From positions 1 to 64,000 of the IMG/VR virus record IMGVR_UViG_3300020050_013619: DNA of 64,000 nt. One strand, written 5' to 3'. A program made the position numbers and the translations under genes. This DNA comes from a virus (lineage: Duplodnaviria > Heunggongvirae > Uroviricota > Caudoviricetes). Under the pieces are notes generated by a model, which was not told where the DNA came from, made no database searches, and was given only the letters and a program-made list of their open reading frames with translations. Of this stretch, positions 13,068 through 53,648 are shown piece after piece (the stretch's first letter is position 1; each line of letters starts with the position of its first letter).

Positions 13068-13481
13068 ATGATAGATATTAACGAAATCAGAATTGGTAAT
13101 TTCTTAATGCAAAACAAGATTTTTATTCGTGAAGTTAAAATAGAAGATTTTCAAAGCTCATTTTTTTTAGATGCTATTAAAGCAGGGAATTTAAATCCAA
13201 TTCCGCTAACTGACGGATGGCTTGAAAAGGCTGGCTTCTCGCTACATAGTCGTCACCTTTCATGGTATAAAGAAATCAATGTCAATTGGCGCAAAAAGCC
13301 TATTATTCTGCACATTATAGATAAAAGCAGAGTAAGTACGGGATATGAAGAAGAAAAAAAACTTTGTAGATATTCTATTGAATACAGTGGTGGGTACTTA
13401 ACTCACTTCGATTACGTGCACGAGTTTCAGAATTTGTATTTTTGGCTTTTGCGACACGAGGTTACTTTCTCTAATCAATAA
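13068..13481 (+). CDS. member of a phage paralog family (NEIRIGN...IP.T.W...GF...Y.HE.QNL.F)
   Basis: Shares the N-terminal M..NE(L/I)RIGN, a central IP(L/I)T..WL...GF and the C-terminal YVHEFQNLYFWL with three tandem paralogs at 43579..44797. Confidence 0.5.
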   Translation: MIDINEIRIGNFLMQNKIFIREVKIEDFQSSFFLDAIKAGNLNPIPLTDGWLEKAGFSLHSRHLSWYKEINVNWRKKPIILHIIDKSRVSTGYEEEKKLCRYSIEYSGGYLTHFDYVHEFQNLYFWLLRHEVTFSNQ

Positions 13482-34957: not shown

Positions 34958-34985
34958 GGGGTGTTTTTTGGGGATGAAAAAAGCC

Positions 34986-35023: not shown

Positions 35024-35040
35024 AAGCATAATTGTTCGCC

Positions 35041-35265
35041 TCAATCAACCATTTTAATAACAAACATTCTCAAATAAGAACGGAGTTTTTTAAATAATTC
35101 ATTCAAGGCTTCGGCTTCTTGCTCGGTAAAATGTATAGCATCCGTTTTTTCACGACAAAAGCTATATTCTAAAGAATCATTCCAACCCAAATAATCTAAA
35201 TACTCGAATTGACCAGAATCATGGTTATCGTACATGATAACGTATTTATTTTCGCTATTTTCCAT
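35041..35265 (-). CDS. hypothetical small protein (74 aa)
   Basis: ORF in the minus-strand early island. Confidence 0.35.
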   Translation of the reverse strand: MENSENKYVIMYDNHDSGQFEYLDYLGWNDSLEYSFCREKTDAIHFTEQEAEALNELFKKLRSYLRMFVIKMVD

Positions 35266-35313
35266 TTATCTATTTTTTAGGTGTGATTAAAGGTGAATAA
35301 TACCCCAATTTGT

Positions 35314-35553
35314 CTAATAAATAATAGTTTTAAACTTACCACATTTTTCACAGCAAAAGACTTCTGTAACTTTTGTTATTTCATAAAACTCAACAGGAAC
35401 GTTTTTAGCAAATAAAAATGTTTGATTGTATTCTGCTTTAGGCATTGCTACACGCTTGATTTTATCTTCAACTTTTCGGATTGAGTTGAACTTGTGTCGG
35501 CAAAATAATTGTGCTATTCCCATTTTATACTGAGTGGTTTTTAGATGATTCAT
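35314..35553 (-). CDS. hypothetical small protein with CxxC motif (79 aa)
   Basis: CCEKCGK. Confidence 0.35.
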   Translation of the reverse strand: MNHLKTTQYKMGIAQLFCRHKFNSIRKVEDKIKRVAMPKAEYNQTFLFAKNVPVEFYEITKVTEVFCCEKCGKFKTIIY

Positions 35554-35881
35554 AAACTTCGGTGACTTCTAATCCCCCAAAAATCTGATTGACAAATTGC
35601 TCAAAAGTCAAATTAACCAAATAGGTTTTCGTGGATTTGTCTTTAAAAAATTTGACCAAACAAACCTCAATAGCATTTTGAGTGAATCTTTCGATAGACA
35701 GTTCGTAGCGCAAAACCATGTCCTTTTCGTCGTTCGGATATGGCAAACTACCGCGTGACATCGCCGACAATTCGGCTATGATATTGGTTTTAAATCGCTG
35801 CATAGACACACCTTGGTAGGCATATCGTTGAACGCCTATCGGAATCATTTTGACTATCTTTTCTTGCTCTACTGTCATCAT
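35525..35881 (-). CDS. hypothetical protein (118 aa)
   Basis: ORF only. Confidence 0.4.
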   Translation of the reverse strand: MMTVEQEKIVKMIPIGVQRYAYQGVSMQRFKTNIIAELSAMSRGSLPYPNDEKDMVLRYELSIERFTQNAIEVCLVKFFKDKSTKTYLVNLTFEQFVNQIFGGLEVTEVYESSKNHSV

Positions 35882-35922
35882 GTCGCTATTAGGTTTGAAA
35901 TACGGTTTTGTACTAAGTGCTA

Positions 35923-36177
35923 TTATTCAAAATAGAAAACACGGACATCGCCAGTTTCATTTCTGCCATCAACAATACTTTGTAATTCCTGCTTTATTTC
36001 TGATATAATCTTCACTTTGGTTTCAATAAATTCAGCTTCTTTATTGAAATTATGCTCTCTTAAAAAGCGTAATTTACTAAGCATTTCATTTTCTTTTTTT
36101 GATAAACAGGCTAAAAACTTAGTTATTTTTTCCATCGTTGATTTTATTTTAAGACTTAAACTTCGGCAAAATACCAA
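35923..36177 (-). CDS. hypothetical small protein (84 aa)
   Basis: ORF only. Confidence 0.35.
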   Translation of the reverse strand: MVFCRSLSLKIKSTMEKITKFLACLSKKENEMLSKLRFLREHNFNKEAEFIETKVKIISEIKQELQSIVDGRNETGDVRVFYFE

Positions 36178-36553
36178 GATAAAAATACCGATTTTCTATT
36201 TGATTGAATGTCATGTAAAAGTCCACTTTTTTGAAGTTACCTTTCATTGAATCTTCTTGATATTCACAATCACCGCCTTGCAAAAGTCCTTTGTTTAAGT
36301 ACGCTGGAACTCTGCAATCCCGAACATAGTCAATTAGGTGCTCATCAACTTCGCAGGGATATTTAAGGTATTTATCTAAATCCAATCCCGAATCTTCCCA
36401 ACCTTGACGGGTTTTAATCGTATTTTTCACCGTTTGGGCAAAGTCGCAAAGCGAGCCAAAATCGACAACAATCTTGTCATTTTCTTTGATTTCAGCAGGC
36501 AAGCCAAAATACTTTTCAGTCACCAATTCGTATTCGCATCTTTCAAGTGCCAT
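36149..36553 (-). CDS. hypothetical protein (134 aa)
   Basis: ORF only. Confidence 0.45.
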   Translation of the reverse strand: MALERCEYELVTEKYFGLPAEIKENDKIVVDFGSLCDFAQTVKNTIKTRQGWEDSGLDLDKYLKYPCEVDEHLIDYVRDCRVPAYLNKGLLQGGDCEYQEDSMKGNFKKVDFYMTFNQIENRYFYLGILPKFKS

Positions 36554-36612
36554 AATAGTTGATTTTAGAAATTATAAAATATTTTATTGATTGCGATAAC
36601 TGCTAAGCTAAA

Positions 36613-36861
36613 TCACGCAAACCACAACAGAATCATTGCGATGATAATTCCCGCTATTGCACGTTTGATTTTGACTTGTTTTTCTACGTGCTTTTTGTGG
36701 CGTGGCGAATAGTCGTAAAATTCGCCGCTAATTTTGATGTTATTTCTCATTTTTATAAAGTTTTTTATACTGTTCAATGCCAAATACAAGTGCAAAAAGT
36801 GGTGTAAATGCCGTACCAAATGCCTGTTTATTGATGTAGCAGTGGTACGAATAATCCTCAC
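36613..36861 (-). CDS. small membrane protein (probably starts at the internal Met near 36750)
   Basis: C-terminal TM segment AIAGIIIAMILLWFA; the track ORF overlaps 36740..37006, so the shorter start is more plausible. Confidence 0.3.
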   Translation of the reverse strand: MRIIRTTATSINRHLVRHLHHFLHLYLALNSIKNFIKMRNNIKISGEFYDYSPRHKKHVEKQVKIKRAIAGIIIAMILLWFA

Positions 36862-37006
36862 CTCTGATTATTTGAATGTCCTTGTCTTTTTGGAAATCCA
36901 TGATGTCAGAAAGATTGAAGTTCTTTTTGACATATTTATTCTCGGATTCAATCGCTTTGTCCATCTGATTGTTTTTCATAATCAATATCTTTAATCCTTT
37001 GCTCAA
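36740..37006 (-). CDS. hypothetical small protein (probably starts at the internal Met MKNNQMDK)
   Basis: ORF; its 5' overlap with 36948..37235 argues for the internal start. Confidence 0.3.
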   Translation of the reverse strand: MSKGLKILIMKNNQMDKAIESENKYVKKNFNLSDIMDFQKDKDIQIIRGEDYSYHCYINKQAFGTAFTPLFALVFGIEQYKKLYKNEK

Positions 37007-37235
37007 AATCTCTCAAAATTGCAACCAAGTCATCCGATGAACCAACCGCAAACCGATTCGTTTCAATGACGATGTAATAATCTTTTTCATCGTCCTTGTC
37101 GTTTTTGTCGTACAAATGAAGGAGCGCGGGCTGCGCCGTAACTGTTAATGTCTGCATTATTTGCCTTTCATCGCTGTCATCGGGCTCTATGAGGTATTCT
37201 ATCGTCACCTTTCCAATTTTTATGCTTTTATCCAT
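36948..37235 (-). CDS. hypothetical small acidic protein (95 aa)
   Basis: ORF only. Confidence 0.35.
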   Translation of the reverse strand: MDKSIKIGKVTIEYLIEPDDSDERQIMQTLTVTAQPALLHLYDKNDKDDEKDYYIVIETNRFAVGSSDDLVAILRDFEQRIKDIDYEKQSDGQSD

Positions 37236-37236
37236 C

Positions 37237-37614
37237 TTAGTTATCTAAATCCGTTTGTGAAATAATAGACGTATCACCGTGTTCTGTACCTGTAATCTCA
37301 TCAATCATTTCAGAACCATTGATGAGATTCATAGCCAATTGTGCATTTACTTCGGATAGCAGTCGAAACATATTTGACGTGGCAGTAAGTTTGTGTTCTA
37401 ACAACCGCTTATTGCCGTTGAAATCTTTTTGTAGATTTGCTTTGAATCTTATGTTCTCATTTTCAATCTTCGCAATTGAATACGATGGATTGATTTTGAG
37501 TAGGAATTCAGCGAACCCCTCAGTATGAAGTACAACCGTTCCAGCGACATCTTCTCTATCGAGTATGGCTTTGATTTCGGCTAAAATGCGTTTTAGTTTT
37601 GGACTGTATTGCAT
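37237..37614 (-). CDS. hypothetical protein (125 aa)
   Basis: ORF only. Confidence 0.4.
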   Translation of the reverse strand: MQYSPKLKRILAEIKAILDREDVAGTVVLHTEGFAEFLLKINPSYSIAKIENENIRFKANLQKDFNGNKRLLEHKLTATSNMFRLLSEVNAQLAMNLINGSEMIDEITGTEHGDTSIISQTDLDN

Positions 37615-37630
37615 GGTTTTTTATTATTTT

Positions 37631-38482
37631 TCAAATTATACAAGCACAGGGCTTCGGTACTTCACCAACTTTTAACCCATACTTCTTTTTTAATATTGTC
37701 ACAAATTTTTGTGCGCTTTGGTGTTCCGTTGCCTCTATTCCGTCTTGCTGCATTTGCTCAAAATAATGAGCGAGTTCAAAAAGGAATAAATTACTTGTTT
37801 CTTTATCGGTTGTTACTCGATTGACTGAATAATCCAAGTCTATTTCTAATTGTGAGGCTTCATTAAATCCTTCTCTATCATGTACAAAAGTCACGTACCA
37901 ATGGAGAATACCTCCTTTTAAACAACCTGTACAATTTGCGTGTTTCCACACTGAATATGTTAGAGGGGGTTCTATACCTATCTCACGAGTGCTGTAAATT
38001 GTTCTTTCTTTCCAAAATGCAAGCGGATAATCCGATTTATAGCCCATTCCAGATAAAATACCTACACGCCTTTTTATACGAGCTTTCTCAACTAAATCAA
38101 ACCCATAATAGACTGTCACCTGCTCACCAAACAGAGTATTAAAGTTATTGATTCTCAAATACTTGTCAAATGGTTCAGTTTTTAGTTTTGCCGTACAAAT
38201 AGCGTTACCATCTTGTGATGTAATAGCCCCCGCCTCACGACAAACATCAAATTGATTGGGTATATCATCGCCTATTAATCCTTTATGATTCTGAAATGTT
38301 ATGTCAATTCCTAAATATCTTGCCACCTCTTTTTTAAATCTCTTAATGTCGGCGTTTTCTTTTTTAGGATTTATGTCATGGTTCAGAAGAATAACATTTT
38401 CCTTTCCAAACCTGCGCGTTACCTCTATTGCAACCAACGCGGATGAGTGCCCCCCCCCCGAATAACAAACTAAATGTTTCAT
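37631..38482 (-). CDS. PP-loop ATP-pyrophosphatase family protein (PAPS-reductase/QueC-like)
   Basis: N-terminal VCYSGGGHSS resembles the PP-loop SGGxDS (His replaces Asp); C-terminal Cys pairs CTGC and CAC; first gene after a minus-strand early promoter. Confidence 0.5.
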   Translation of the reverse strand: MKHLVCYSGGGHSSALVAIEVTRRFGKENVILLNHDINPKKENADIKRFKKEVARYLGIDITFQNHKGLIGDDIPNQFDVCREAGAITSQDGNAICTAKLKTEPFDKYLRINNFNTLFGEQVTVYYGFDLVEKARIKRRVGILSGMGYKSDYPLAFWKERTIYSTREIGIEPPLTYSVWKHANCTGCLKGGILHWYVTFVHDREGFNEASQLEIDLDYSVNRVTTDKETSNLFLFELAHYFEQMQQDGIEATEHQSAQKFVTILKKKYGLKVGEVPKPCACII

Positions 38483-38496
38483 GTTTTTAACTTATG

Positions 38497-38575
38497 TTAC
38501 TTGATACTCCGTTGAATTATTTTCACAAAGGTAATTTTAAATAAATACAATCACAAATTTAACACACAGAAAAAT
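38497..38575 (-). promoter_or_regulatory. early promoter (minus strand) for the 38482..35041 island
   Basis: On the minus strand: GTTAAATTTGTGATTGTATTTATTTAAAA ... TTCAACGGAGTATCA ... ATG. Confidence 0.5.
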
Positions 38576-38623
38576 TAAAAAATCTGTAAATTGGCTTAAA
38601 TTAAATTTTACTGTCAATAGGGG

Positions 38624-39692: not shown

Positions 39693-41366
39693 ATGGCAAA
39701 CGTTAATATACCCTACGTCAATCGTAGCTATCAGCAAATCAAAGAGTTTATCTTGACACGGCTTTTTGGCGTGCGCGATGACAACGGACAGTTTGTGCCA
39801 GGTGCTGGGCTTGTGCCTGAAGTAACCGACCATACGGAAAACAGTCTTTTGGTGCGCATTATTTCAGTTTGGGCAGGACTCATTGAAATGCTCAATTACT
39901 ATATTGACAATGCCAGTACCGAAACTTTCTTGGCAACGTGTCGGCGTTATCGGTCGGGTGTTTTGATTGCACGATTCTATGACTATCGCATCAAATGCCG
40001 CACGGCTGCAACTGTCAATATCACTTTTTATCTGTCGGCTGCGCACACGTCAACCGTTACGATTCCAGCCAATACCATCGTTCTGACCGCCGACGGTATC
40101 AATTTCTACACAACGCAGGATTTGGTTATTGCCATTGGCGATACGCGCGGCACGGTCGGCGCACGGCAAGCGAGTAATATTGGGTTCACGACACTTGGCA
40201 CCAGCAACGGCAAAGCCAATCAGGTATTTGAATTGGCGACGACAACGGCTTTCAATTCTGTATCTATCCGTATTGGCGGCGTATCATACGCTTCAAAAGA
40301 TACGTTTGCCTTTTCGACACCTACGGACAAGCATTTTGTCGAGACGGTGAATGAATCGGGCGTGCCAATTGTCAAATTTGGAGACGGTTACTTTGGTATC
40401 ATTCCAGCAAGTGGCGCAACGATTGAAGTATCGTATAAAACGACATTTGGGGTATTTGGTAATGTTGCGCCGTATCTCATCAATACGATTGTCTCATCGC
40501 TCACGTTACCATCGGGCATAACGGCAACTTGTTCAAATCTCAATGCCGCTTCAGGTGGTGGCGAGATTGAAAGTTTGGCAGAATTAAAACGCCGTGTACC
40601 CCTCAGTAACAGAACCCGAATGGCAGCAGTGCCAAAACAAGATTATATTGATTTGACAGAAACGTATCCATCGGTTCAAAAAGCAGGTGTTGAATACTCG
40701 TGCGGTGCGGACATCAAATTGTACATCGTGCCCACAGGTGGGGGTATTGCTTCAACGGAGTTGTTGGCAGACGTAACGACGTACATGGATGATAAGAAAA
40801 TCATGGGTCGGCGGTTATCGGTCTTACCAACTGGACAGGTGCGTATAAAGTTGGGTATTCGTTTACGGATTCGACCAGACTACAACCAAACGGCGGTGTA
40901 TGCGGCGGTCAAGGCAAAACTCACAACGTTTGGCAGTTATCTGAATCAACAGATTGGCGGCGCAATAGAATTAAATGATGTGATTGCGGAAATTGAATCT
41001 ACTGAGGGGGTGATTGTTTCGAAAGTAGATACGATGACAACGATACCCTTTGCGCGACCTTTGGGCGATTGGCAAACACTCGATTGGACAGTCGCAACGG
41101 GCGTAAACTCCAGCGAAACAGTACAGTGGAAAATCAGTTTTACAGCCGTTGACCGTTTTCAATTGTTGCGCAATGGTTCATACATTGGCACGTATGATGT
41201 CGGCGATACGGTGACACGCAATGAAATGGTTTTTACCATCAATGACGAGTACGCCATCGGTGATGAGTGGGTGTTTACGACCTATCCGTATTTTGGTTCG
41301 GTTATTTTATCGGAAATGTCGCTGCCTGTAATTTTGGAGGGGGATATTGCTTTGTCGGGTTACTGA
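39693..41366 (+). CDS. baseplate J-like (gp6/gpJ) protein
   Basis: 557 aa, immediately after the gpW-like gene; gpV-W-J order. Confidence 0.55.
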   Translation: MANVNIPYVNRSYQQIKEFILTRLFGVRDDNGQFVPGAGLVPEVTDHTENSLLVRIISVWAGLIEMLNYYIDNASTETFLATCRRYRSGVLIARFYDYRIKCRTAATVNITFYLSAAHTSTVTIPANTIVLTADGINFYTTQDLVIAIGDTRGTVGARQASNIGFTTLGTSNGKANQVFELATTTAFNSVSIRIGGVSYASKDTFAFSTPTDKHFVETVNESGVPIVKFGDGYFGIIPASGATIEVSYKTTFGVFGNVAPYLINTIVSSLTLPSGITATCSNLNAASGGGEIESLAELKRRVPLSNRTRMAAVPKQDYIDLTETYPSVQKAGVEYSCGADIKLYIVPTGGGIASTELLADVTTYMDDKKIMGRRLSVLPTGQVRIKLGIRLRIRPDYNQTAVYAAVKAKLTTFGSYLNQQIGGAIELNDVIAEIESTEGVIVSKVDTMTTIPFARPLGDWQTLDWTVATGVNSSETVQWKISFTAVDRFQLLRNGSYIGTYDVGDTVTRNEMVFTINDEYAIGDEWVFTTYPYFGSVILSEMSLPVILEGDIALSGY

Positions 41367-41382
41367 TTTATATGAGGTGTAA

Positions 41383-41421
41383 AAAAGCCGTTTGGGTGTT
41401 AAGTCCAAACGGCTTTTTCAT
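41383..41421. terminator. bidirectional terminator
   Basis: AAAAGCCGTTTGG...CCAAACGGCTTTTT. Confidence 0.6.
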
Positions 41422-41502: not shown

Positions 41503-42066
41503 TTACTCTTTATTTTTAGGAAATGCTCTACTAAACGGCTTCACAAAATTATTTTCAGTCTTAACACTGCTTAACCAGCCATCGGTTCTAATCTGTGCAG
41601 TAAGTCCCGAATATTCTCTGATTTCTTGAATCATCTCAATGGCACTGATTTTACCTGCCATATTCTTATCAAGTATCGGTAACAAACCTTTGGTTGTTTC
41701 ATCGTTTCCTTCGAAATTAAAGCCAATATTATTTATACTAATACTTGAGCCATCTTCGAACACAAATGAAGCCAATAAGCCATTGACATAAACAATACGC
41801 CCATTATCGGAGTTGACATCGCTCATAATACCAATAAGCGTTTTATGCGCGACTTGATAAAGAAAGCGCAGCTTTGGCGGGTTAAGTTCATCACCACCGT
41901 ATTCTATTTTGGTGCGCTCAATAACGCCAAACTGATAAGGGTTTTGGTCAATTCGATTCAATTCTTCGAATTCATGTTCGATGAGGTAATTGATAGCTTC
42001 CTGTGCTGTATCAAATTCCTCAATCGCTGTAACGTGTCTTTTTTCCATTGTGATTTTTTTACTCAA
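41503..42066 (-). CDS. hypothetical protein (187 aa)
   Basis: Last gene of the minus-strand early island. Confidence 0.45.
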   Translation of the reverse strand: MSKKITMEKRHVTAIEEFDTAQEAINYLIEHEFEELNRIDQNPYQFGVIERTKIEYGGDELNPPKLRFLYQVAHKTLIGIMSDVNSDNGRIVYVNGLLASFVFEDGSSISINNIGFNFEGNDETTKGLLPILDKNMAGKISAIEMIQEIREYSGLTAQIRTDGWLSSVKTENNFVKPFSRAFPKNKE

Positions 42067-42475
42067 AGATAGATAAAGTATGTTCAGTCTTGATAGTGAC
42101 CGTCGGCAATATTGGATTGATAAAAATTGTCATTCCGCTCGGTACGTCTTCGCCATCCATTTTGACAACACGATAAACAAAGTGTCTGTGCGTGGGCGAA
42201 TAGCCGTTGTACTCGATTTTGTATTCCGTTACATCGCCTGTATTTGTTGGGTTTACGGCTTTGATAACATTCGCTGTTTTCTCAAAACTGCGGAGCATTT
42301 TTGCGCTCAATGTGTCCGATTTACCCTCATAGTTCTTTGTCGCTGTCAAGTGATTTGTGAAGACCTTGAAATCAAAGTCTTTTTGAGCTTGCATACTGAG
42401 GGGTAGTACAAGTAGGAGAAATACGAGTTTTTTCATTGTTTTATTCTGTCTATAAGTGAGATAATATTTTGACAA
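42059..42475 (-). CDS. secreted protein (mature start probably Met at 42436: MKKLVFLLLVLPLSMQAQ)
   Basis: Signal peptide at the internal Met. Confidence 0.45.
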   Translation of the reverse strand: MSKYYLTYRQNKTMKKLVFLLLVLPLSMQAQKDFDFKVFTNHLTATKNYEGKSDTLSAKMLRSFEKTANVIKAVNPTNTGDVTEYKIEYNGYSPTHRHFVYRVVKMDGEDVPSGMTIFINPILPTVTIKTEHTLSIFE

Positions 42476-42786
42476 GCTTCTTTTGGCTGGTCAATTTGCA
42501 AAGCATATTTTTTAGCGATGTGTTCATAATAGTAAAATGAATTCATATCGCGCACATCTATGTCGTAGTGCAGTTTTTTGGTTGCAAATTCAATGCACAG
42601 GCGTAATCTTTCAGATAGAGAAAGTTTGGGCCTAATGACGTTGTAATCAAGCATCATAAGTCTAAAAGTGTCTGTCGTCATAAAACAAACCCTGCGGTCA
42701 CGCCTTTGTTCCGATACGGTTTGACAAGGGACAATAGTTGAGACAGACCAAAAGTCACTTGGTAAAAGCATATTTATGAGAGCCAT
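42433..42786 (-). CDS. hypothetical protein (117 aa)
   Basis: ORF only. Confidence 0.4.
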   Translation of the reverse strand: MALINMLLPSDFWSVSTIVPCQTVSEQRRDRRVCFMTTDTFRLMMLDYNVIRPKLSLSERLRLCIEFATKKLHYDIDVRDMNSFYYYEHIAKKYALQIDQPKEACQNIISLIDRIKQ

Positions 42787-42946
42787 ATTGTTTAATTATT
42801 CAGTTTTAATGATACGTTTTACAGTTGCGATAATGATTAAGACCAGCAATTGAGCTGATAAAAAGGTAAACACAAACTTACCAAGCGTATCTCCTCTAAA
42901 AACAGAGAAAACTATACTTACTAAGCCTGTAATTAAATGCGTTGTT

Positions 42947-43183
42947 TTATATCTGTTTATATTCATTTTCCAATTTTTGACATTCTTTTACTATTGTTAA
43001 TTGAAATTTACACTCATTAATATATTCAGTCTCCTTAGTACCAATTAAGTCCTTTTGACTTTCCATAACAAAAACACGCAACCCTTGACAATCATGCACT
43101 ACTGACACGCTATTGTAGGGCAGACCTAAACCCATTAAATAACTGTGCATTTGCCTCATGGCTGTATAATTGTATTCTTGCAT
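42947..43183 (-). CDS. hypothetical small protein (78 aa)
   Basis: ORF only. Confidence 0.35.
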   Translation of the reverse strand: MQEYNYTAMRQMHSYLMGLGLPYNSVSVVHDCQGLRVFVMESQKDLIGTKETEYINECKFQLTIVKECQKLENEYKQI

Positions 43184-43191
43184 AACTGCTT

Positions 43192-43542
43192 TTATAAAAC
43201 TTGGTAATTAAATGATGATTTAAAGCACCCTTTGACATAAGCAAAGTCAGGATTGCCGAGGGTTGTGTAACCAGCTTTTACAGGCTTATTCATGCCCATT
43301 AGCATGATGAACATTTTTAGGTCGTTCAACTCACCTTTTCCGACTTGGTAAAACCCTTGTCTTTCGCCTGCCATAAAAGGTCTCAACCCTAATAATGTGT
43401 TTTCAGCAATAAGATATTTACCCGATACGTCATGGTAATACAGCACTTTCTCATCAGACTTTATAAGTTCTGATTTCATGGGCGTTGTATTGGTGGCGGT
43501 TGTTTCATTTTCTAATCCGTCGAAAATATTTGCTTTGCTCAT
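43192..43542 (-). CDS. hypothetical protein (116 aa)
   Basis: ORF only. Confidence 0.4.
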   Translation of the reverse strand: MSKANIFDGLENETTATNTTPMKSELIKSDEKVLYYHDVSGKYLIAENTLLGLRPFMAGERQGFYQVGKGELNDLKMFIMLMGMNKPVKAGYTTLGNPDFAYVKGCFKSSFNYQVL

Positions 43543-43578
43543 TTATTATAGTTTTAAAAAAGCTCCTATGTTATTAAT

Positions 43579-43932
43579 TTATTGTTGATTTATTTCCAAT
43601 ACTTCGCCTCTCAAGACAAATATTAAGTTTTGCAATTGGTGTATATATTGCACATTGAATATTATCTTGCTGTTGAACCAAAACGAATAAACTGGCTCAC
43701 TACCGTCGTTGTGGTCAAAGCTATAAAGTTGGACATTAGAAATCTTTTTCTGCCACTCCTCGGTTACAGGTATAGGCTCAATAATAACACCCGAAGCATC
43801 AATAAAACCTTTTACAGCATCGCTACCAGTTAATTCGAGTGCTTCAATACCATTTACTGACATAGCAGCAATTTTATAAATACCATTGCCACTTTTAACC
43901 AAATTGCCAATCATTAACTCATTTACATTCAT
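43579..43932 (-). CDS. paralog family member 1 of the tandem triplet
   Basis: MNVNELMIGNL...IPVTEEWQKKI...QYIHQLQNLIFVLRGEVLEI. Confidence 0.5.
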   Translation of the reverse strand: MNVNELMIGNLVKSGNGIYKIAAMSVNGIEALELTGSDAVKGFIDASGVIIEPIPVTEEWQKKISNVQLYSFDHNDGSEPVYSFWFNSKIIFNVQYIHQLQNLIFVLRGEVLEINQQ

Positions 43933-44366
43933 TCTTTAATAAATTTTAGTTCCTGCCTATCATTCACATAAAAGCAGATGTTTTGCAATTCATGTACATA
44001 ATCGCACCGAATAAGTGCCGCAAAGCCGTTTGGTTGAACGCCAAAATGTTCTTTATTGTGCTCATGGAAGCTGAACACAACTTTTGGATTAGTTGACAAT
44101 ACATAGATGTTACCATATTCATGCTTTAACTCGAATCCAAGATTTAACAGCAGTTCTTTTGTGATAGGTATGGGCTTGCAATTATCTAAATCAACGATAT
44201 AGCCTCGCTCAATTTTGTCGCCTCTATACGCATCAATTAACAGTTGACAGCCTTCATTTGTATCGCACCGCGTGAGGTGCTCATGGGGTTTAAATCCGTT
44301 AATTTTGGCAATCAGTCCTTCATCATCAATGATTAGGTTTCCAATTCTTAGTTCGTTTGCTTTCAT
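43929..44366 (-). CDS. paralog family member 2
   Basis: MKANELRIGNL...IPITKELLLNLGF...DYVHELQNICFYV; ATGA overlap with its neighbours. Confidence 0.5.
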   Translation of the reverse strand: MKANELRIGNLIIDDEGLIAKINGFKPHEHLTRCDTNEGCQLLIDAYRGDKIERGYIVDLDNCKPIPITKELLLNLGFELKHEYGNIYVLSTNPKVVFSFHEHNKEHFGVQPNGFAALIRCDYVHELQNICFYVNDRQELKFIKE

Positions 44367-44797
44367 GCTTTAATTAATATTAGTTCTTCACCTGCCAAGG
44401 CAAAGAACAAGTTTTGAATTTGATGGATAAATTGAACCTCTATGTATGAGTCTGCATCGTGAATATGAAAAATATTAAAGAGGTAACAACCATCTGTTTT
44501 GGACTTATAGATACCGTGATTTTCATTTACCCATGCAAATAGCTCGGGCGTGTATATAAACCCGAATCTTTTAAGCCACTCCTCAGTAATTGGAATAGCT
44601 TCAATGTACTTAATAAACTGATGAAAATCCTCGTAATATTGATTTGGCTTTCTTTCTAATTCAACCAAACTAATAGAGTATTCATCGTGCATTTCTGAAA
44701 TACCCCTTACGACAACAGGAATATCTTTCATGCCTGGATGATACTCTTTGTTGTTTATTGTCACTATGTTGCCTATCCTTAATTCTTCAGGTTTCAT
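44363..44797 (-). CDS. paralog family member 3
   Basis: MKPEELRIGNI...IPITEEWLKRFGF...QFIHQIQNLFFALAGEEL. Confidence 0.5.
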   Translation of the reverse strand: MKPEELRIGNIVTINNKEYHPGMKDIPVVVRGISEMHDEYSISLVELERKPNQYYEDFHQFIKYIEAIPITEEWLKRFGFIYTPELFAWVNENHGIYKSKTDGCYLFNIFHIHDADSYIEVQFIHQIQNLFFALAGEELILIKA

Positions 44798-44803
44798 AAC
44801 TTC

Positions 44804-45292
44804 TCATTTATCCAGCACAAAAAAATCATCATTGATTCTTTTGCACCACGTTCTATAATGCGATTTCCTAATTAGGCGTAAATCAACGCCCAGTTTCAAG
44901 ACTGAAAAAATATTATACTCGACCTTGATTGAACCATCACTCAGTTGATAGGCTTTAGTATAATCAAGTGTCTTTCCTATTCTCATTTCAGCAAATCGAG
45001 ATGCTTCAATCACGATAATGTTTGCAAAACGACTTGTCTTTTCAGTTGCGTTATTGTGGTAATGTTCGTTACCACCGACGTATGTTTTGATTTCGACAAT
45101 TTTAGTGATGCCGTTAAAGTTGCAAATAGCATCAAACTCGAACTTAACCTTGTCAATCACTACCTCTCGATTAGGCAATACATCACATTGATACGACAGC
45201 CAGCCACGAATAATATTTTCGATGTGCGTTGACAGGATATTGCGAATGAAGGATTTCTGACTGTTTGATTTGTTTAGATTTACTTTTCGCAT
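44804..45292 (-). CDS. hypothetical protein, possibly PD-(D/E)xK-like
   Basis: FDAIC...ITKIVEIKTY is weakly D...E-x-K-like; otherwise unassigned. Confidence 0.35.
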   Translation of the reverse strand: MRKVNLNKSNSQKSFIRNILSTHIENIIRGWLSYQCDVLPNREVVIDKVKFEFDAICNFNGITKIVEIKTYVGGNEHYHNNATEKTSRFANIIVIEASRFAEMRIGKTLDYTKAYQLSDGSIKVEYNIFSVLKLGVDLRLIRKSHYRTWCKRINDDFFVLDK

Positions 45293-45306
45293 GGGATTAA
45301 GACTTT

Positions 45307-45546
45307 TTAATCATTGATTTTTTGGTAATATTCAATGATGGTCGCCAACTCTTTTGCGTTGCATTGGCGTATCTCAATATCTTGTTTTTGTTGCGCCAAG
45401 GCATCTTTCCAAAAACTGACTAAATCTTTAGTCAGTTGCTCAAGAATGGCTTTTTGCTGTTTGAAGTCAAAGTTGTTGCAGATGTATGCAACTGTTTGTG
45501 TGGCATATTGAAGATGCGGCTCTTGTGGTACTGGGTCTCCTATCAT
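45307..45546 (-). CDS. hypothetical small protein (79 aa)
   Basis: On the minus strand, AATCAACGGAATAAATC directly precedes the ATG. Confidence 0.45.
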   Translation of the reverse strand: MIGDPVPQEPHLQYATQTVAYICNNFDFKQQKAILEQLTKDLVSFWKDALAQQKQDIEIRQCNAKELATIIEYYQKIND

Positions 45547-45569
45547 GATTTATTCCGTTGATTTTAAAT

Positions 45570-45833
45570 TTATTTTAAAAAATTGATTCCTTTTTCCGTT
45601 AACCCAACTTTCAAACGTTTGGCGTTTACGTGCGCACAAACGATATATTTATTGTCCTTCAGCCACTGATAGTGTTTAACTTGTAGCGTTCGGACATTGA
45701 GATAATGCGCCAAATCAACAAATACAAGCTGCGTACTGAGGCTTGATTTCTCGGCAATGTCATCCAAATATTTCCGTGCTGTTTTTTCCATTGACAACGA
45801 ATTTACAGAGTTCCAAAAATGACTCAAACACAA
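45570..45833 (-). CDS. hypothetical small protein (start uncertain)
   Basis: ORF; overlaps 45760..46104 in another frame. Confidence 0.3.
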   Translation of the reverse strand: MCLSHFWNSVNSLSMEKTARKYLDDIAEKSSLSTQLVFVDLAHYLNVRTLQVKHYQWLKDNKYIVCAHVNAKRLKVGLTEKGINFLK

Positions 45834-46104
45834 ACACGTCCCATCCTTCTGTCAACATGTGCATAATCAACTCAAAGTCTCTTTCTGTTTGCACAAAGCC
45901 TTTTAATTCAATTTTATGCGAATGAAAACCTTCGTTTAGGTCATATATATAGTAGTACGTTTTTGCGTAATTCGATACCTTATGTATGCCAATGCCTGCA
46001 AAAACACCATCCTTTACAAAAAGCAAAGGTTTTTTGTCATACTTCGCTTCACTTAATGCTTCATTCACGATTTTACGAAGGTTTGGCAGTTCAATTTTTT
46101 CCAT
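45760..46104 (-). CDS. hypothetical protein (114 aa)
   Basis: ORF only. Confidence 0.4.
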   Translation of the reverse strand: MEKIELPNLRKIVNEALSEAKYDKKPLLFVKDGVFAGIGIHKVSNYAKTYYYIYDLNEGFHSHKIELKGFVQTERDFELIMHMLTEGWDVFVFESFLELCKFVVNGKNSTEIFG

Positions 46105-46279
46105 GCGCTTTTTTACTATTTAAAAGATAATACAAAAAATAGATAATAAAAATATCATCAATTAGCCTTGCAACAACATAATCAAATAAGGTAAACTTGT
46201 GCGGTATAGGCAGTGTCCACGACCAAATTGTTATAACAAAGCCTATCAATGAAAAATGATAGTTCAAGTTGTTTTTCAT
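46091..46279 (-). CDS. small membrane protein (62 aa)
   Basis: Hydrophobic FSLIGFVITIWSW segment. Confidence 0.3.
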   Translation of the reverse strand: MKNNLNYHFSLIGFVITIWSWTLPIPHKFTLFDYVVARLIDDIFIIYFLYYLLNSKKAHGKN

Positions 46280-46746
46280 TTTGATTCCTCTAAAGCCAAA
46301 CCTTTTGAAATAAGACCCAACACATCAAATCGGCAGGATAAAAGGTATAAATGCACGCTCGTTGGTACTTTGATATTGCTTGGCGTTATTATCCAAATAG
46401 AACCCATATAGCCAATGCGAAGTGCTTCATTAAACCAATCATTTTCTATTGTAATCAATATAGAATTTGAGTAAACATCAAAACTGTAATCCGTTTCGGG
46501 ATAGGTTACTTCTGGGTGAATGATTCTTTTCAATACTTCAATCGCTTCATTTTTCTTCATATCTCTAATTAAACGTAAAATAGGCTTGACTACCGAGGGG
46601 TCAAAATTAGCCCGCTCACAAATCACTTTATTGGCGACAATGTCAACACCTTCAATGGTTGCAGGTGTGCCAACAGCCTTATCAGTAGAATCAAAAATCA
46701 TACATGGAAAGCCTATGTATAGAGCGAATTCAGATATTGAAATCAT
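46276..46746 (-). CDS. hypothetical protein (156 aa), first gene of the island
   Basis: ORF directly downstream of a minus-strand early promoter. Confidence 0.45.
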   Translation of the reverse strand: MISISEFALYIGFPCMIFDSTDKAVGTPATIEGVDIVANKVICERANFDPSVVKPILRLIRDMKKNEAIEVLKRIIHPEVTYPETDYSFDVYSNSILITIENDWFNEALRIGYMGSIWIITPSNIKVPTSVHLYLLSCRFDVLGLISKGLALEESK

Positions 46747-46774
46747 TAGCTTTTAATTTTCAACAAAGATAAAT

Positions 46775-46815
46775 TAAATAATTACAATCACAAAATTAAC
46801 ATCTTGAAAATCTAA
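46775..46815 (-). promoter_or_regulatory. early promoter (minus strand) for the 46746..41503 island
   Basis: On the minus strand: GTTAATTTTGTGATTGTAATTATTTAATTTA (TAATTTTG -7 element plus the box). Confidence 0.5.
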
Positions 46816-46860
46816 AAAAATCTATAAATTGACACATCTCATAATAATCTATCAATAGTC

Positions 46861-47496
46861 ATGCTTTTCAAAGATAAAATATTCAGCCTACTCGGTCCAA
46901 ACGAAAAAAGGACGGATAGTAATAAGAATTCAAGCGGCAAAGGCACGCTTGAACGCTACATGTCGGCTTTTGGCGATGATATTGATACGAATATTGTACC
47001 GCTCATCGAAAACTTGGTTCAAAACACCACCGATATAGAACTGATGTTTACACGGTTCTTAGATGTTCAAGAGGAAACGAGGGGTGTTTTACCGCTCTCT
47101 TTTTCGCGCGGCTCATCGGACGAGGAGGAACGTATCAAAGACGAGTGGATGCGTCGGCGACTGTTGCTACACATCGAAAAGATACTGGCTGTCAGAGGTA
47201 CAAAAAAAGGTTTTCAATTGCTTTTCAGATTGATTGACAGTACCATCACCGTTATCACCATCAACGAGGCTTTTTCGGAAAATTTCTACGACGAATCGGA
47301 GTTTGACGATGGATTGAAATTCGACGTATCTATTTGCTCTGAATGCCCTGTTTACTCGATTGTCATTGTATCGGATGGCACAACCGAACCAACGGACTAT
47401 ATCATCAAGTGCGCCAAATCAATCATCGCATTCAACCAGCCGATTGACGTAAAACTGGGTACAATCACATACAACGGGTTCGCCATTTCTCTATAA
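46861..47496 (+). CDS. putative baseplate wedge / tail-fibre-associated protein (211 aa)
   Basis: Resumes the late block after the island, immediately upstream of the fibre gene. Confidence 0.4.
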   Translation: MLFKDKIFSLLGPNEKRTDSNKNSSGKGTLERYMSAFGDDIDTNIVPLIENLVQNTTDIELMFTRFLDVQEETRGVLPLSFSRGSSDEEERIKDEWMRRRLLLHIEKILAVRGTKKGFQLLFRLIDSTITVITINEAFSENFYDESEFDDGLKFDVSICSECPVYSIVIVSDGTTEPTDYIIKCAKSIIAFNQPIDVKLGTITYNGFAISL

Positions 47497-47526
47497 TTCT
47501 CTATCATAATAATTCAACGGAATATC

Positions 47527-49266
47527 ATGCAAAAGCGTTTTTTCAATTATAAGGACATTATCAAATCGTTTGATGCCAATCAAAGGGATTTTGCCATTGC
47601 GCCGAGTGGCGTATATGCTGGCTTTGATGAAATACAAGATGCGTCGGTGGGCGAAATACCCCTTTCAAGTGGCGATGTCGGTATTCGGTTTTTGCACACC
47701 ACAACAGCGATGCGATATATTGATGATAACGGCGACGATGCTATGCTGTCATGCGTCAAGTCAGAGCAAGGCGCAATCATCACCGAAACTACACGCATCA
47801 CACTACCCATTACGTCAGACCCTACATTGGATCGTATTGATGCCATCGTGTTGCGGCACGCCTATACTGAAGTATCTGGCGGCGCAGCGGCAACGTATGA
47901 AGTTATACAAGGCACTGAGGGTGAAACCGTAGAACCAACAATTTCTATTGATACGGAGCGGACGGTTATTGGTTGGCTTTTGGTCAAAGCAGGTGCCGCA
48001 GATGCAAGCGACATGGTTTGGCTGCGGAAAGAAACACCACAGTTTGGCAACAAAGATTTTCGGCAGCATCAATTGTCACTCAAAGCCATGTTGTCCGTTG
48101 CGGAACATGATGCTGTTTTAACTTTCACCAGCAATGACTTAAATCTGCCATTTACGGGCAATATCTACAAGGTGAAAGCACGTGCAACAACAGGTCAAAA
48201 CATCGTTCATCAAATGCCAGCGCGCACACGCAAGGTTTTTGGTACGGATGAAGTTGGGGCGATTGTTTGGCTGCATGTAACGGATGATTCGGTGCCGTTT
48301 ATTCTCTATGATAAGGAGAACCTACTTGAAATGGGCGCAACAGAACCCGATAGCGGCTATAAGTGGATAAAGACAGGTGCAGGTAAAGAAATATCAGTAG
48401 CAGCGGGAGGTATCGTGCAACTGATTGAACGTACCGAGTTTTGGGAGGTAACGGGTGTTATAGATTCGGCAATACACCCTAATACTCTTGCTGATAAAAT
48501 CAATAACAAAGGCACATGGTGGCTTGAAGATGATTTTATTAGTGCTGTTCGTGCCTCACTTGGTCACACTTTAGTCATTCATGGGCGTAAGGCGGTCAAT
48601 GTCAATAGTTCAGGATTTATTGAAATTGGTTTAGCAGCAACACAACGCAATGTGTTTGAAATTACCGTACCAACGGGCGTGACAGATATTTTTGGGTTAG
48701 ATGAAACATTGAAATTTACAGACCTTATAACGGGTTATGGCGCAGAGGTCATATTGAGATTCGTAACGGTTACACCTGGACGAGCCTTTCTTCGCTTAGG
48801 CTCACAACCTAATCACTTCAAAGCACAAAACGGTTTTGATTACATTGTCAAGGCGGGGTCAATCGTTAAGTGTTTACAAACAGATACAGGGCTATTCATT
48901 ATTTCGGGTGATGCCTATGAGAAATGGATAACCCCCTCAGTACCTGGCACCGTATCAACGCTGATTCGCAACGGCGCATTCCGTTACAAGATTGGTGTGG
49001 ATGGTAAAATACAATTTGAAGGTTCTGTTGAGGTAGCCATTGGTGAGACAGCGGATATTTTGGTTTTACCAACGTCGCTTTTTGCATCGGAGAATCTTTT
49101 AGGCGTGCAGGAAATCAACGTTTTCCCACTTTCGCCAGCCGTTCCAAATGCTTACAGCCGTATGACTTACGCCAATGATGGCACAAATGTAACCTTTACG
49201 ATTGAAGCGGGTAGTGGCGCATCACAAACGTTCAATTTTAAGGGAACGTACATCAATTATCGGTAG
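47527..49266 (+). CDS. putative tail fibre protein (579 aa)
   Basis: Large beta-rich ORF; TTCAACGGAATATC directly precedes the ATG; terminator downstream. Confidence 0.5.
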   Translation: MQKRFFNYKDIIKSFDANQRDFAIAPSGVYAGFDEIQDASVGEIPLSSGDVGIRFLHTTTAMRYIDDNGDDAMLSCVKSEQGAIITETTRITLPITSDPTLDRIDAIVLRHAYTEVSGGAAATYEVIQGTEGETVEPTISIDTERTVIGWLLVKAGAADASDMVWLRKETPQFGNKDFRQHQLSLKAMLSVAEHDAVLTFTSNDLNLPFTGNIYKVKARATTGQNIVHQMPARTRKVFGTDEVGAIVWLHVTDDSVPFILYDKENLLEMGATEPDSGYKWIKTGAGKEISVAAGGIVQLIERTEFWEVTGVIDSAIHPNTLADKINNKGTWWLEDDFISAVRASLGHTLVIHGRKAVNVNSSGFIEIGLAATQRNVFEITVPTGVTDIFGLDETLKFTDLITGYGAEVILRFVTVTPGRAFLRLGSQPNHFKAQNGFDYIVKAGSIVKCLQTDTGLFIISGDAYEKWITPSVPGTVSTLIRNGAFRYKIGVDGKIQFEGSVEVAIGETADILVLPTSLFASENLLGVQEINVFPLSPAVPNAYSRMTYANDGTNVTFTIEAGSGASQTFNFKGTYINYR

Positions 49267-52228: not shown

Positions 52229-52320
52229 AGTTATATTCTTTTTTTTATTTTGAGAGAGAGATATTAAATTGACTATATTTGCAAGATGATTAATAATCAA
52301 CGGAATATCTTTTTAACATT

Positions 52321-52364
52321 AAAACGCTTTATTATACATTTTGTATAATAAGGCGTTTTTTCAT
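52321..52364 (+). terminator. strong hairpin with T-run upstream of the HU-like gene
   Basis: 16-bp stem AACGCTTTATTATACA/TGTATAATAAGGCGTT, loop TTT, then TTTTTT. Confidence 0.55.
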
Positions 52365-52381
52365 TAACCTATGACACATAT

Positions 52382-52693: not shown

Positions 52694-52705
52694 CTGAGAG
52701 GGTTC
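52676..52705. terminator. hairpin after the HU-like gene, carrying the CCCTCAGT motif as an inverted pair
   Basis: ACCCCCTCAGTAACTGAGAGGGTT. Confidence 0.45.
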
Positions 52706-52740
52706 ACTAATCAACGGAATATCAAATCAACTACTAGGAG

Positions 52741-53632: not shown

Positions 53633-53648
53633 AATTAAAGTCAAAATC

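What the first reader, a model, noticed from the sequence alone, without database searches (positions are those of the whole stretch)
41503..46746. A 5.2-kb minus-strand early-gene island inserted between baseplate genes, containing a tandemly triplicated paralog family with a fourth copy 30 kb away
The late plus-strand module is interrupted between the gpJ-like gene (ends 41366) and the next baseplate/fibre genes (from 46861). The interruption holds 14 opposite-strand ORFs driven by an early-type promoter at ~46780 and bounded by a bidirectional terminator at ~41400. Three adjacent genes (43579..43932, 43929..44366, 44363..44797) encode paralogs sharing M..NELRIGN at the N-terminus, a central IP(I/V)T(E/K)EW...GF and a C-terminal Y(V/I)H(E/Q)(L/F)QN(L/I).F. 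A fourth paralog sits at 13068..13481 in another early block. The island also encodes a secreted protein (42059..42436), a possible PD-(D/E)xK-like protein (44804..45292) and many unassigned small proteins. Diversifying tandem paralogs in early islands are typical of host-takeover or anti-defence loci. None of these proteins matches a family I can name.
Basis: partly seen in the sequence, partly recalled or inferred. Interest (0 to 1): 0.7.

Follow-up and report, generated by a model that had tools for sequence, protein, structure and literature searches.

The report
Accessory gene island splitting phage baseplate genes
A phage of Bacteroidota carries a compact 15-gene operon, read backwards from its own host-type promoter, wedged between two baseplate genes; three of its genes belong to a very large family of small phage proteins of unknown function, so it looks like an ordinary accessory-gene island that contains one good target for study.

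Summary
Window 41503-46746 is one tightly packed minus-strand operon of 15 genes (not 14). A Bacteroidota sigma-A-type promoter (46764-46794) drives it, and a strong bidirectional terminator (41381-41418) ends it. It splits a gpJ | next-baseplate-gene junction that is contiguous in three distant relatives.

The three adjacent genes and the copy at 13068-13481 are true homologues: phrog_10066, no Pfam model, about 33,000 clusters (50% identity) in public data, nearly all from Bacteroidota phages and prophages. They are not a recent triplication. Each copy is closer to 70-200 outside members than to its siblings.

The AlphaFold model is confident (pLDDT 92). It shows an N-terminal SH3/Tudor/KOW-like barrel plus an alpha/beta domain with no significant PDB match. 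ATGA start/stop overlaps and natural two-unit fusion proteins suggest the units act together.

Function is not established. Host-interaction or counter-defence is my preferred guess, held with low confidence. The fourth copy lies between terminase and portal on the late strand, not in a shown early block. The PD-(D/E)xK idea for 44804-45292 rests on a motif only.

A twin island (35041-38482) has the same architecture and differs in gene content between near-identical strains. Verdict: a real, fairly ordinary plastic accessory island. Interest 0.38.

The parts
39693..41366 (+). Upstream flank: baseplate wedge protein, gpJ-like (557 aa)
   Evidence: phrog_6 E 4e-37. Its homologues in three relatives are followed directly by the homologue of 46861-47496.
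41381..41418 (.). Bidirectional intrinsic terminator shared by the late gpJ transcript and the island operon
   Evidence: AAAAAAGCCGTTTGG...CCAAACGGCTTTTT. dG -20 / -21.6 kcal/mol, z -5.5 / -8.1.
41503..42066 (-). Last island gene, 187 aa (181 aa in the JGI call), no family match
42059..42436 (-). 125-aa protein with an N-terminal Sec-type signal peptide (MKKLVFLLLVLPLSMQA|QK); probably exported
   Evidence: Sequence. The signal peptide is read by eye, not by a predictor. No family match.
42433..42786 (-). 117-aa protein, no family match
42796..42966 (-). 56-aa hydrophobic protein (GRAVY 0.85); probably a small membrane protein
42947..43183 (-). 78-aa protein, no match
43192..43542 (-). 116-aa protein, no match
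43579..43932 (-). phrog_10066 family member 1 (117 aa). Its start overlaps the stop of member 2 (ATGA).
43929..44366 (-). phrog_10066 family member 2 (145 aa). Its start overlaps the stop of member 3 (ATGA).
44363..44797 (-). phrog_10066 family member 3 (144 aa). This is the copy modelled: SH3/Tudor-like barrel (about residues 1-61) plus an alpha-beta5-alpha domain (residues 68-144).
44804..45292 (-). 162-aa basic ORFan (pI 9.4) with an E25...D54...E67-x-K69 motif; candidate minimal PD-(D/E)xK nuclease
   Evidence: The only database match is itself. Non-significant PDB hit 4ic1_A aligning the three motifs. pI.
45307..45546 (-). 79-aa protein, preceded by a copy of the CAACGGAATA leader motif (45550-45560)
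45570..45791 (-). 73-aa basic protein (ATG start as in the JGI call), with only weak, non-significant PHROG hits
45760..46104 (-). 114-aa protein, no match
46091..46279 (-). 62-aa hydrophobic protein; probably a small membrane protein
46276..46746 (-). First island gene, 156 aa, phrog_10841 (unknown function). Homologues at 49-58% identity occur in unrelated contexts.
46764..46794 (-). Island promoter, Bacteroidota sigma-A type: TTTGTGATTGTAATTATTTAATTTATCTTTG
   Evidence: 16 matches against 4.4 expected. Near-identical copies at 38526-38557(-) and 4865-4896(-).
46747..46860 (.). Divergent intergenic cassette. About 80-110 nt are conserved with 38483-38623 and 4702-4959. It carries the island promoter and, by inference, a restart promoter for the + strand late genes.
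   Evidence: alignment. family D3 (three copies of 78 nt, 71% identity).
46861..47496 (+). Downstream flank: 211-aa protein in the position of the gene that follows gpJ in relatives (gpI-like position)
   Evidence: tblastn against L001, L016 and L017, 25-29% identity, starting within about 25 nt of the end of the gpJ match or in an ORF that overlaps the gpJ ORF.
13068..13481 (+). Fourth phrog_10066 member (137 aa), in a low-GC block between the large terminase (9830-11491) and the portal (14180-16573)
35041..38482 (-). Twin island with the same architecture: terminator at 34977-35012, promoter at 38526-38557, between a tube-like gene and gpV. It includes a PAPS-reductase-like gene. Its distal 1.1 kb is swapped in a 99.8%-identical strain.

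Best explanation
Island B (41503-46746) is a plastic accessory operon of a contractile-tailed Bacteroidota phage.

Shown:
- 15 tightly packed genes run from a host sigma-A-type promoter to a bidirectional terminator, convergent with the late baseplate operon.
- The block sits at a gpJ | next-baseplate-gene junction that is uninterrupted in distant relatives.
- A second island (35041-38482) and the methyltransferase block (ending at 4701) are headed by near-identical copies of the same roughly 80-110-nt divergent intergenic cassette.

Inferred:
- Host RNA polymerase reads the island before or independently of the late genes. Its promoter is of the class that precedes the replication/recombination genes.
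- The bidirectional terminator stops late transcription after gpJ, so the cassette must also restart late transcription at 46861.

Contents: ORFans; one exported and two small membrane proteins; a candidate minimal PD-(D/E)xK nuclease; one phrog_10841 protein; and three translationally coupled, deeply divergent members of phrog_10066.

That family is a two-domain, acidic, roughly 110-150-aa protein: an SH3/Tudor-like barrel packed against an alpha/beta domain with no known relative. It has an invariant N-terminal ELRIGN, a central IPLTEEW..GF and a C-terminal YVHQLQNLYF.

My preferred mechanism, held with low confidence, is this. The units work as dimers or hetero-oligomers that bind protein partners. 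Each divergent copy has its own specificity. They serve host interaction (counter-defence or takeover) during the early phase. They are not virion components.
For: Architecture:
- ORF map and packing; promoter; terminator.
- Contiguity of gpJ and the next gene in three relatives.
- Low GC of all three small-gene blocks.
- The twin island has an identical layout and a strain-level cassette swap.

Family:
- Full-length alignment and invariant motifs; phrog_10066; exactly four copies in the window.
- 33,276 cluster representatives; no Pfam or NCBIfam model.
- 250 loci in GTDB species genomes, almost all Bacteroidota.
- Neighbours there are prophage TerL, NinG, C5 methylases, portal and capsid, that is, a nin-like accessory region, with no fixed partner.

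Fold:
- pLDDT 91.8.
- Full-length matches only to uncharacterised phage proteins.

Oligomer inference: ATGA overlaps between the three genes; natural fusions of two complete units, P0150 and P0202; two copies within 6 kb in 6 of 80 loci, mostly adjacent or within about 0.5 kb.

Protein binding rather than DNA binding: median pI 5.1 and net charge -7.

Non-structural: Cellulophaga phage records list the homologues only as hypothetical proteins.
Against: - No experiment or expression data. 'Early' rests on promoter type alone.
- No island protein resembles any known anti-defence, defence or takeover protein.
- The family has no conserved neighbour that would point to a target.
- The fourth copy is on the late strand, next to packaging genes, and many prophage copies sit beside the terminase. 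The family is therefore not tied to early islands.
- Acidic pI is weak evidence.
- Island B is invariant across all strains found, so arms-race turnover is not seen here.
- The relatives that lack the island are very distant (25-31% protein identity). The time and direction of the insertion are therefore inferred by parsimony.
Confidence: 0.5

Rival explanations
1. The phrog_10066 proteins are nucleic-acid-binding regulators of transcription, translation or RNA fate. They would use the SH3/KOW/Tudor-like barrel as NusG/Spt5 KOW domains or T4 MotB-type proteins do. The divergent copies would recognise different sites.
Against: The family is acidic (median pI 5.1). No KOW or other Pfam model is matched even at E<=1. 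The TM-scores to the regulators are low and reflect the barrel only. SH3-like barrels bind proteins as often as they bind nucleic acids.
Confidence: 0.18
2. The island genes, including the family, are 'moron'-type genes that benefit the host or prophage. They would give superinfection exclusion or defence against competing phages rather than counter-defence.
For: The family is abundant in prophage regions of Bacteroidota genomes. The island encodes an exported protein and two small membrane proteins, the usual classes for exclusion functions. It has its own promoter and terminator, as classical morons do.
Against: No integrase or repressor has been identified in the 64-kb window, although I did not search for them systematically. 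No PADLOC defence model matches. The promoter class is shared with the lytic replication genes.
Confidence: 0.15
3. The family proteins are morphogenesis helpers, such as assembly chaperones or minor virion decorations, for tail, baseplate or packaging. This would explain their positions beside baseplate, terminase and portal genes.
For: Locations: inside the baseplate/fibre module here; between terminase and portal here and in Cellulophaga phage Nekkels_1. TerL, portal and capsid genes are among the commonest neighbours.
Against: The three island copies are on the opposite strand under a replication-class promoter. The distant relatives examined have no family member within the stretches searched around gpJ (about 10-12 kb each side). 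Context is otherwise variable, including methylase-rich early regions. Homologues are listed only as hypothetical proteins in the Cellulophaga phage records.
Confidence: 0.1
4. The island is a selfish, nuclease-driven mobile cassette (homing-endonuclease-like) that inserted itself into the baseplate operon. The other genes would be passengers.
For: A candidate PD-(D/E)xK nuclease at 44804-45292. Insertion between conserved genes. A repeated boundary cassette at three sites. A cassette swap in the twin island with one breakpoint at the terminator.
Against: The nuclease assignment is not significant (E 0.46) and the protein is an ORFan. No HNH, GIY-YIG or LAGLIDADG domains were found. A 5.2-kb, 15-gene unit is far larger than known homing cassettes. 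Island B shows no presence/absence polymorphism.
Confidence: 0.07

Closest known systems
Phage 'morons' and plastic or hyperplastic accessory regions (lambdoid morons; the plastic periphery of T4-type genomes). This comparison rests on established knowledge, not on a test here.
   Same: An autonomous transcription unit (own promoter and terminator) lies between conserved structural genes. It has a lower GC than its surroundings, is filled with small ORFans, and is absent from relatives. The twin island varies between near-identical strains.
   Different: It is larger than a classical one-gene moron (15 genes). It is antisense to the late operon. It is paired with a repeated roughly 80-110-nt divergent promoter cassette present three times in the genome. 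Island B itself is invariant in the strains available.
PHROG family phrog_10066 (unknown function)
   Same: All four window proteins match over nearly the full profile length (E 2e-13 to 6e-23). Homologues occur in Cellulophaga and Flavobacterium phages.
   Different: Three adjacent copies plus a fourth in one genome is unusual. Only 6 of 80 genomic loci had two copies within 6 kb, and none had three.
SH3-like small beta-barrels (PsaE, 53BP1/TDRD3 Tudor, Spt5/NusG KOW)
Cas4/RecB-type PD-(D/E)xK nucleases (PDB 4ic1; from memory this entry is the Sulfolobus Cas4 SSO0001)
   Same: The 162-aa island protein aligns its E25, D54 and E67-x-K69 with the helix glutamate, the 'ADAI' aspartate and the 'IEIKT' motif of 4ic1_A. 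The protein is basic.
   Different: E-value 0.46, not significant. There is no Cys cluster and no QxxxY-type motif in the alignment. It has no homologues from which to build a profile.
The lambda nin region (delayed-early accessory genes between replication and packaging/late genes)
   Same: In Bacteroidota prophages the family commonly lies near NinG, C5 methylases and the terminase. In Cellulophaga phages phi19:3 and Nekkels_1 a YopX gene lies 2-3 genes upstream.
   Different: No sequence relation to YopX (hhalign probability 0.2%) or to any Nin protein. In this phage three copies sit inside the tail module instead.
Anti-defence gene sets found through shared early regulatory sequences (for example archaeal viruses, PMC11065993; abstract only)
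   Same: Several blocks of small unknown genes share one conserved promoter cassette.
   Different: No known anti-defence gene is present as an anchor, and nothing has been tested. The analogy is only a search strategy.

Membership tests
phrog_10066 | Significant full-length match to the family HMM | tested here: met
   E 2.3e-13, 3.5e-12, 6.5e-23 and 3.7e-12, covering profile positions 1-126/136 or more. An HMM built here finds exactly these four ORFs.
SH3-like / Tudor / KOW small barrels | Five-stranded small beta-barrel fold | tested here: met
SH3-like / Tudor / KOW small barrels | Sequence membership in a named family (KOW, Tudor, SH3 and similar Pfam models) | tested here: not met
   No Pfam hit for any of the 4 paralogues at E<=1, or for any of the 60 aligned members at E<=0.01.
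PD-(D/E)xK nuclease (for 44804-45292) | E ... D ... (D/E)xK motif in the right order and spacing | tested here: met
   E25, D54 (FDAI) and E67-I-K69 (VEIKT), aligned with the corresponding motifs of 4ic1_A.
PD-(D/E)xK nuclease (for 44804-45292) | Statistically significant homology or an alpha-beta-beta-beta-alpha-beta core fold | tested here: inconclusive
   phmmer E 0.46. No homologues for a profile. No Pfam, PHROG or NCBIfam hit.
Moron / plastic accessory island | Own promoter and own terminator | tested here: met
   Consensus promoter at 46764-46794. Terminator at 41381-41418. These are sequence predictions only; there is no transcript data.
Moron / plastic accessory island | Interrupts gene order that is conserved in relatives | tested here: met
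   gpJ is followed immediately by the homologue of 46861-47496 in L001, L016 and L017.
Moron / plastic accessory island | Composition differs from neighbours; content varies between close strains | tested here: inconclusive
   GC 0.359 against 0.42-0.46, but other regions of small non-structural genes are also below the structural genes (0.387 for 52000-64000; 0.32-0.35 at 52-55 kb). Island B is identical in all strains at 95.6% identity or more. The twin island A does vary.
Known defence / anti-defence proteins | Match to a model of a known system | tested here: not met
   PADLOC: 0 hits for 10 island proteins. No dedicated anti-defence library was available.
YopX (PF09643) | Profile similarity | tested here: not met
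   hhalign probability 0.2% against the Nekkels_1 YopX. No Pfam hit.
Free-standing homing endonuclease cassette | HNH, GIY-YIG, LAGLIDADG or another endonuclease domain | tested here: not met
   No such Pfam or PHROG hit in any island protein.

The most novel reading that the evidence does not exclude
phrog_10066 is a very large (more than 30,000 clusters), uncharacterised family of Bacteroidota-phage effectors. Each is a dimerising SH3-like adaptor fused to a new alpha/beta domain. Divergent copies, arrayed in tandem or fused, would each neutralise a different variant of a host target such as a defence system. On this reading the conserved promoter cassette marks the phage's whole set of host-interaction genes.
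Probability: 0.15. Interest if true: 0.75.

Novelty: new member of a known kind. Interest (0 to 1): 0.38.

Why it matters
As an island, this is a clean but unsurprising example of how tailed phages carry accessory genes inside otherwise conserved structural modules. It comes complete with a reusable promoter/terminator 'socket'.

The part worth following up is the protein family.
- It has tens of thousands of sequence clusters across Bacteroidota phages and prophages.
- It has no Pfam model and no annotation.
- Its two-domain model is confident, and half of it has no structural relative.
- Natural fusions hint at oligomeric action.

Counter-defence and takeover factors of Bacteroidota phages remain little characterised, to my knowledge. 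A family this common is a sensible first target. The shared promoter cassette gives a simple way to list the other candidate genes in this genome.

Tried and rejected
- Megablast of the island against 50,697 phage records: no match.
- Pfam, NCBIfam and PADLOC on the island proteins: nothing significant.
- Profile search of PDB sequences with the family alignment: only a non-significant local match to an intein strand (E 0.8).
- AFDB50 was not available.
- YopX relationship, suggested by repeated neighbourhood: rejected by hhalign.
- Searches for moderately close relatives, to test island presence/absence: IMG/VR found nothing. The JGI metagenome scan found only the same phage. An exact-protein look-up with gpJ found nothing.
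- L007, which seemed to show a different gene after paralogue 3, is a fold-back assembly chimera of the same phage.
- The apparent 'C-terminal-only' tblastn hits in phi19:3 and filifjonk9-1 are full-length members by HMM.
- Literature searches for the family or for Bacteroidota-phage early or anti-defence genes returned nothing specific.
- The generic sigma-70 promoter scan was uninformative for this host type. The terminator scan missed the real hairpins, probably because their loops are longer than its limit.

Full report
**What is there**

Between the stop of a baseplate-J-like gene (39693-41366; phrog_6, E 4e-37) and the next + strand gene (46861-47496) lie 15 minus-strand ORFs from 46746 down to 41503. 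Independent gene calls on a 99.8%-identical metagenomic contig give the same 15 genes. They are packed as one operon: no gap exceeds 36 nt and eight junctions overlap.

GC is 0.359 in the island and 0.42-0.46 in the neighbouring structural genes. The same low GC is seen in two other blocks of small genes (35041-38482 and 11555-13979). The replication region is also lower than the structural genes (0.387 for 52000-64000; 0.32-0.35 at 52-55 kb). Low GC therefore marks small non-structural genes in this phage and does not prove foreign origin.

**Transcription signals**

The host is evidently a member of the Bacteroidota.
- All phage homologues of the paralogue family in the isolate-phage collection come from Cellulophaga or Flavobacterium phages.
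- Almost all genomic homologues are from Bacteroidota.
- One island protein has a typical signal peptide ending '...SMQAQ'.

I therefore searched for the Bacteroidota sigma-A consensus TTTG-N17-22-TAnnTTTG. This consensus comes from established knowledge and appears in, for example, PMC9723704 and PMC6847099, which one search listed but I did not read. It occurs 16 times in the window against 4.4 expected. One copy lies at 46764-46794 on the minus strand, 18 nt upstream of the first island gene.

Near-identical copies head the other two minus-strand blocks (38526-38557 and 4865-4896). Alignment shows that about 80-110 nt of these three divergent intergenic regions are conserved. The extended core, TGTTAAATTTGTGAyTG, also precedes + strand genes of the replication/recombination region at 53117, 53601, 54176, 54929 and 60340. 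That region includes an HU-like gene and a Sak4-like gene. The island promoter therefore belongs to the same class as the replication genes. This is the basis, and the only basis, for calling it 'early'.

At the other end, 41381-41418 forms a 15-16-bp hairpin flanked by A- and T-runs. It folds at -20 and -21.6 kcal/mol on the two strands, z -5.5 and -8.1. The generic scan missed it, probably because its loop is longer than that scan allows.

**It is an interruption**

Three distant relatives from human-gut viromes have the order gpV-gpW-gpJ-[homologue of window 46861-47496] with no gene in between. They are MT121964.1, KX501134.1 and MT121960.1, with about 25-34% protein identity over the baseplate genes. 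In each, the match to the 46861-47496 protein begins within about 25 nt of the end of the gpJ match, or in an ORF that overlaps the gpJ ORF.

No moderately close relative could be found. The time of insertion is therefore unknown. All strains recovered (95.6-100% nucleotide identity) carry the same island.

**A twin island**

Window 35041-38482 has the same layout:
- an upstream late gene (tube-like, 34478-34957);
- a bidirectional terminator at 34977-35012;
- a minus-strand operon that includes a PAPS-reductase-like gene;
- the conserved promoter cassette;
- then gpV at 38624.

In the 99.8%-identical strain L010, the terminator-proximal 1.1 kb of this island (window 35019-36127, four small genes) is replaced by an unrelated 813-nt segment. 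That segment encodes 67-aa and 168-aa proteins. These 'sockets' do exchange cargo.

**The paralogues**

The four proteins align end to end at 27-37% identity to the first of them. All four match phrog_10066, annotated 'unknown function'. An HMM of the family finds exactly four copies in the window.

The family is very large. A profile search of 1.84 billion cluster representatives gives 33,276 hits at E<=1e-3 and 22,536 at E<=1e-10. Yet none of 60 diverse members matches any Pfam model.

In GTDB species genomes, 250 loci were confirmed, almost all in Bacteroidota: Chryseobacterium, Pedobacter, Flavobacterium, Bacteroidales, Chitinophagales and others. Their neighbours are prophage genes: TerL in 9+4 loci, NinG in 6, C5 methylases in 5+4, portal in 5 and capsid in 5 of 80. 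There is no constant partner.

In Cellulophaga phage Nekkels_1 the homologue lies between terminase and portal. The window's fourth copy lies in the same position.

**Not a recent triplication**

By BLASTP, each window copy is more similar to 70-200 family members from other genomes than to any sibling. Siblings rank 73rd to 202nd. The best outside match of copy 3, apart from the same phage, is 43% identical, against about 23-35% identity to its siblings. The array is therefore ancient or assembled from separate acquisitions.

Two copies within 6 kb occur in 6 of 80 genomic loci, and three never occur. The array here is unusual in degree only.

The three genes are joined by ATGA stop/start overlaps. 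Two database proteins, P0150 (259 aa) and P0202 (293 aa), are natural fusions of two complete units. Together these suggest that the units act together.

**Fold**

BFVD gives full-length matches only to uncharacterised phage proteins. The family is acidic, with median pI 5.1.

**Other island genes**

- 44804-45292 is a basic ORFan. Its E25...D54...E67-x-K69 aligns with the catalytic motifs of PDB 4ic1_A, but at E 0.46. It is a plausible minimal PD-(D/E)xK nuclease, not a demonstrated one.
- 42059-42436 has a clear Sec-type signal peptide by inspection.
- 42796-42966 and 46091-46279 are small hydrophobic proteins.
- 46276-46746 matches phrog_10841. It has a few homologues in unrelated contexts.
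- The rest match nothing.

**Interpretation**

The architecture is well supported. It is an autonomous operon, probably early or middle, inserted in a conserved baseplate junction. It is one of at least two such sockets in this genome.

The function of its cargo is open. I favour a host-interaction role for the phrog_10066 proteins, acting as oligomeric, protein-binding adaptors. The reasons are:
- their promoter class;
- their nin-like context in prophages;
- their acidity;
- the tandem and fused arrangement;
- the absence of any structural-protein signal.

This is inference, and I put it at about one in four. The rivals are nucleic-acid-binding regulators, prophage-benefit or exclusion genes, assembly helpers, and a selfish nuclease cassette. 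They are listed with the tests that would separate them.

**Novelty and score**

The island is a new member of a well-known kind. The family is already catalogued in PHROGs as unknown. Nothing here would astonish a phage biologist. Still, the family's size, its unmatched C-terminal domain and the reusable promoter cassette make it a reasonable experimental target. Interest 0.38.

Noticed in passing
window, 25 sites, e.g. 16802-16812, 18984-18994, 30222-30232, 47515-47525, 59493-59503 (+); 4840-4850, 38504-38514, 45550-45560 (-): The motif CAACGGAATAT(CA) occurs 25 times (up to 1 mismatch) against 1.7 expected. It is on the + strand at + strand sites and on the minus strand within the minus-strand blocks. 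Where I checked, it lies about 1-40 nt upstream of a start codon (protease/scaffold, major capsid, sheath, fibre-like and others). It also lies in the leaders downstream of three sigma-A-type promoters. It could be a leader or translation element, a processing site or a late-promoter element; its role is unexplained.
   Followed up: partly
window 4702-4959, 38483-38623, 46747-46860: Three divergent intergenic regions share about 80-110 nt. Each lies between a minus-strand block and a + strand gene. The shared sequence carries the minus-strand promoter and a conserved + strand stretch (AAAAATCTGTAAATTG ... TATCAATAG just before the ATG) that may be a late restart promoter.
   Followed up: partly
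window 35019-36127 vs L010 19164-19976: In a 99.8%-identical strain (JGI 3300020036 contig), four small genes at the terminator end of the twin island are replaced by an unrelated 813-nt segment encoding 67-aa and 168-aa proteins. The breakpoints are at the bidirectional terminator and at 36128.
   Followed up: yes
L011 147-2645, inserted between window 49348 and 49382: A strain from SRR20000428 carries a 2.5-kb insertion between the fibre-like gene and the GH46 gene. It holds a 517-aa TnpB-like protein (Pfam Cas12f1-like_TNB) and a 72-aa ORF, which looks like an IS200/IS605-type element in a phage genome.
   Followed up: partly
window 47527-49266 vs L098: In a 95.6%-identical variant, the 579-aa fibre-like protein is 93% identical overall. 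Some reading-frame segments over its middle part are only about 76% identical. The adjacent island genes are 96-100% identical. The receptor-binding candidate evolves faster than the island.
   Followed up: partly
window 57953-58027 and 58190-58264: Two tRNA genes by Rfam (48.6 and 41.9 bits). ARAGORN calls only the second (tRNA-Met, CAT).
   Followed up: no
window 37631-38482 (-): The first gene of the twin island is PAPS-reductase-like (phrog_424, E 1e-20). Phage members of this family are often implicated in DNA modification rather than sulfur metabolism (from memory).
   Followed up: no
window 2920-4701 (-): A 593-aa DNA methyltransferase (phrog_116, E 3e-60) heads the third block driven by the same promoter cassette. 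This is consistent with that promoter class serving genes needed early against restriction.
   Followed up: no
L007 (JGI 3300020046 contig, 2417 nt): The contig is a fold-back chimera. Positions 1-1783 match window 46238-44456, and positions 1775-2416 match 46063-46704 in the opposite orientation. The 91%-identical 'variant' of paralogue 3 (P0001) is an artefact of this junction.
   Followed up: yes
L099 787-1257 and 1332-1808: Next to the 49%-identical homologue of the island's first gene (phrog_10841) lies another gene of almost the same size (156 and 158 aa), so this may be another tandem pair. I did not check this.
   Followed up: no
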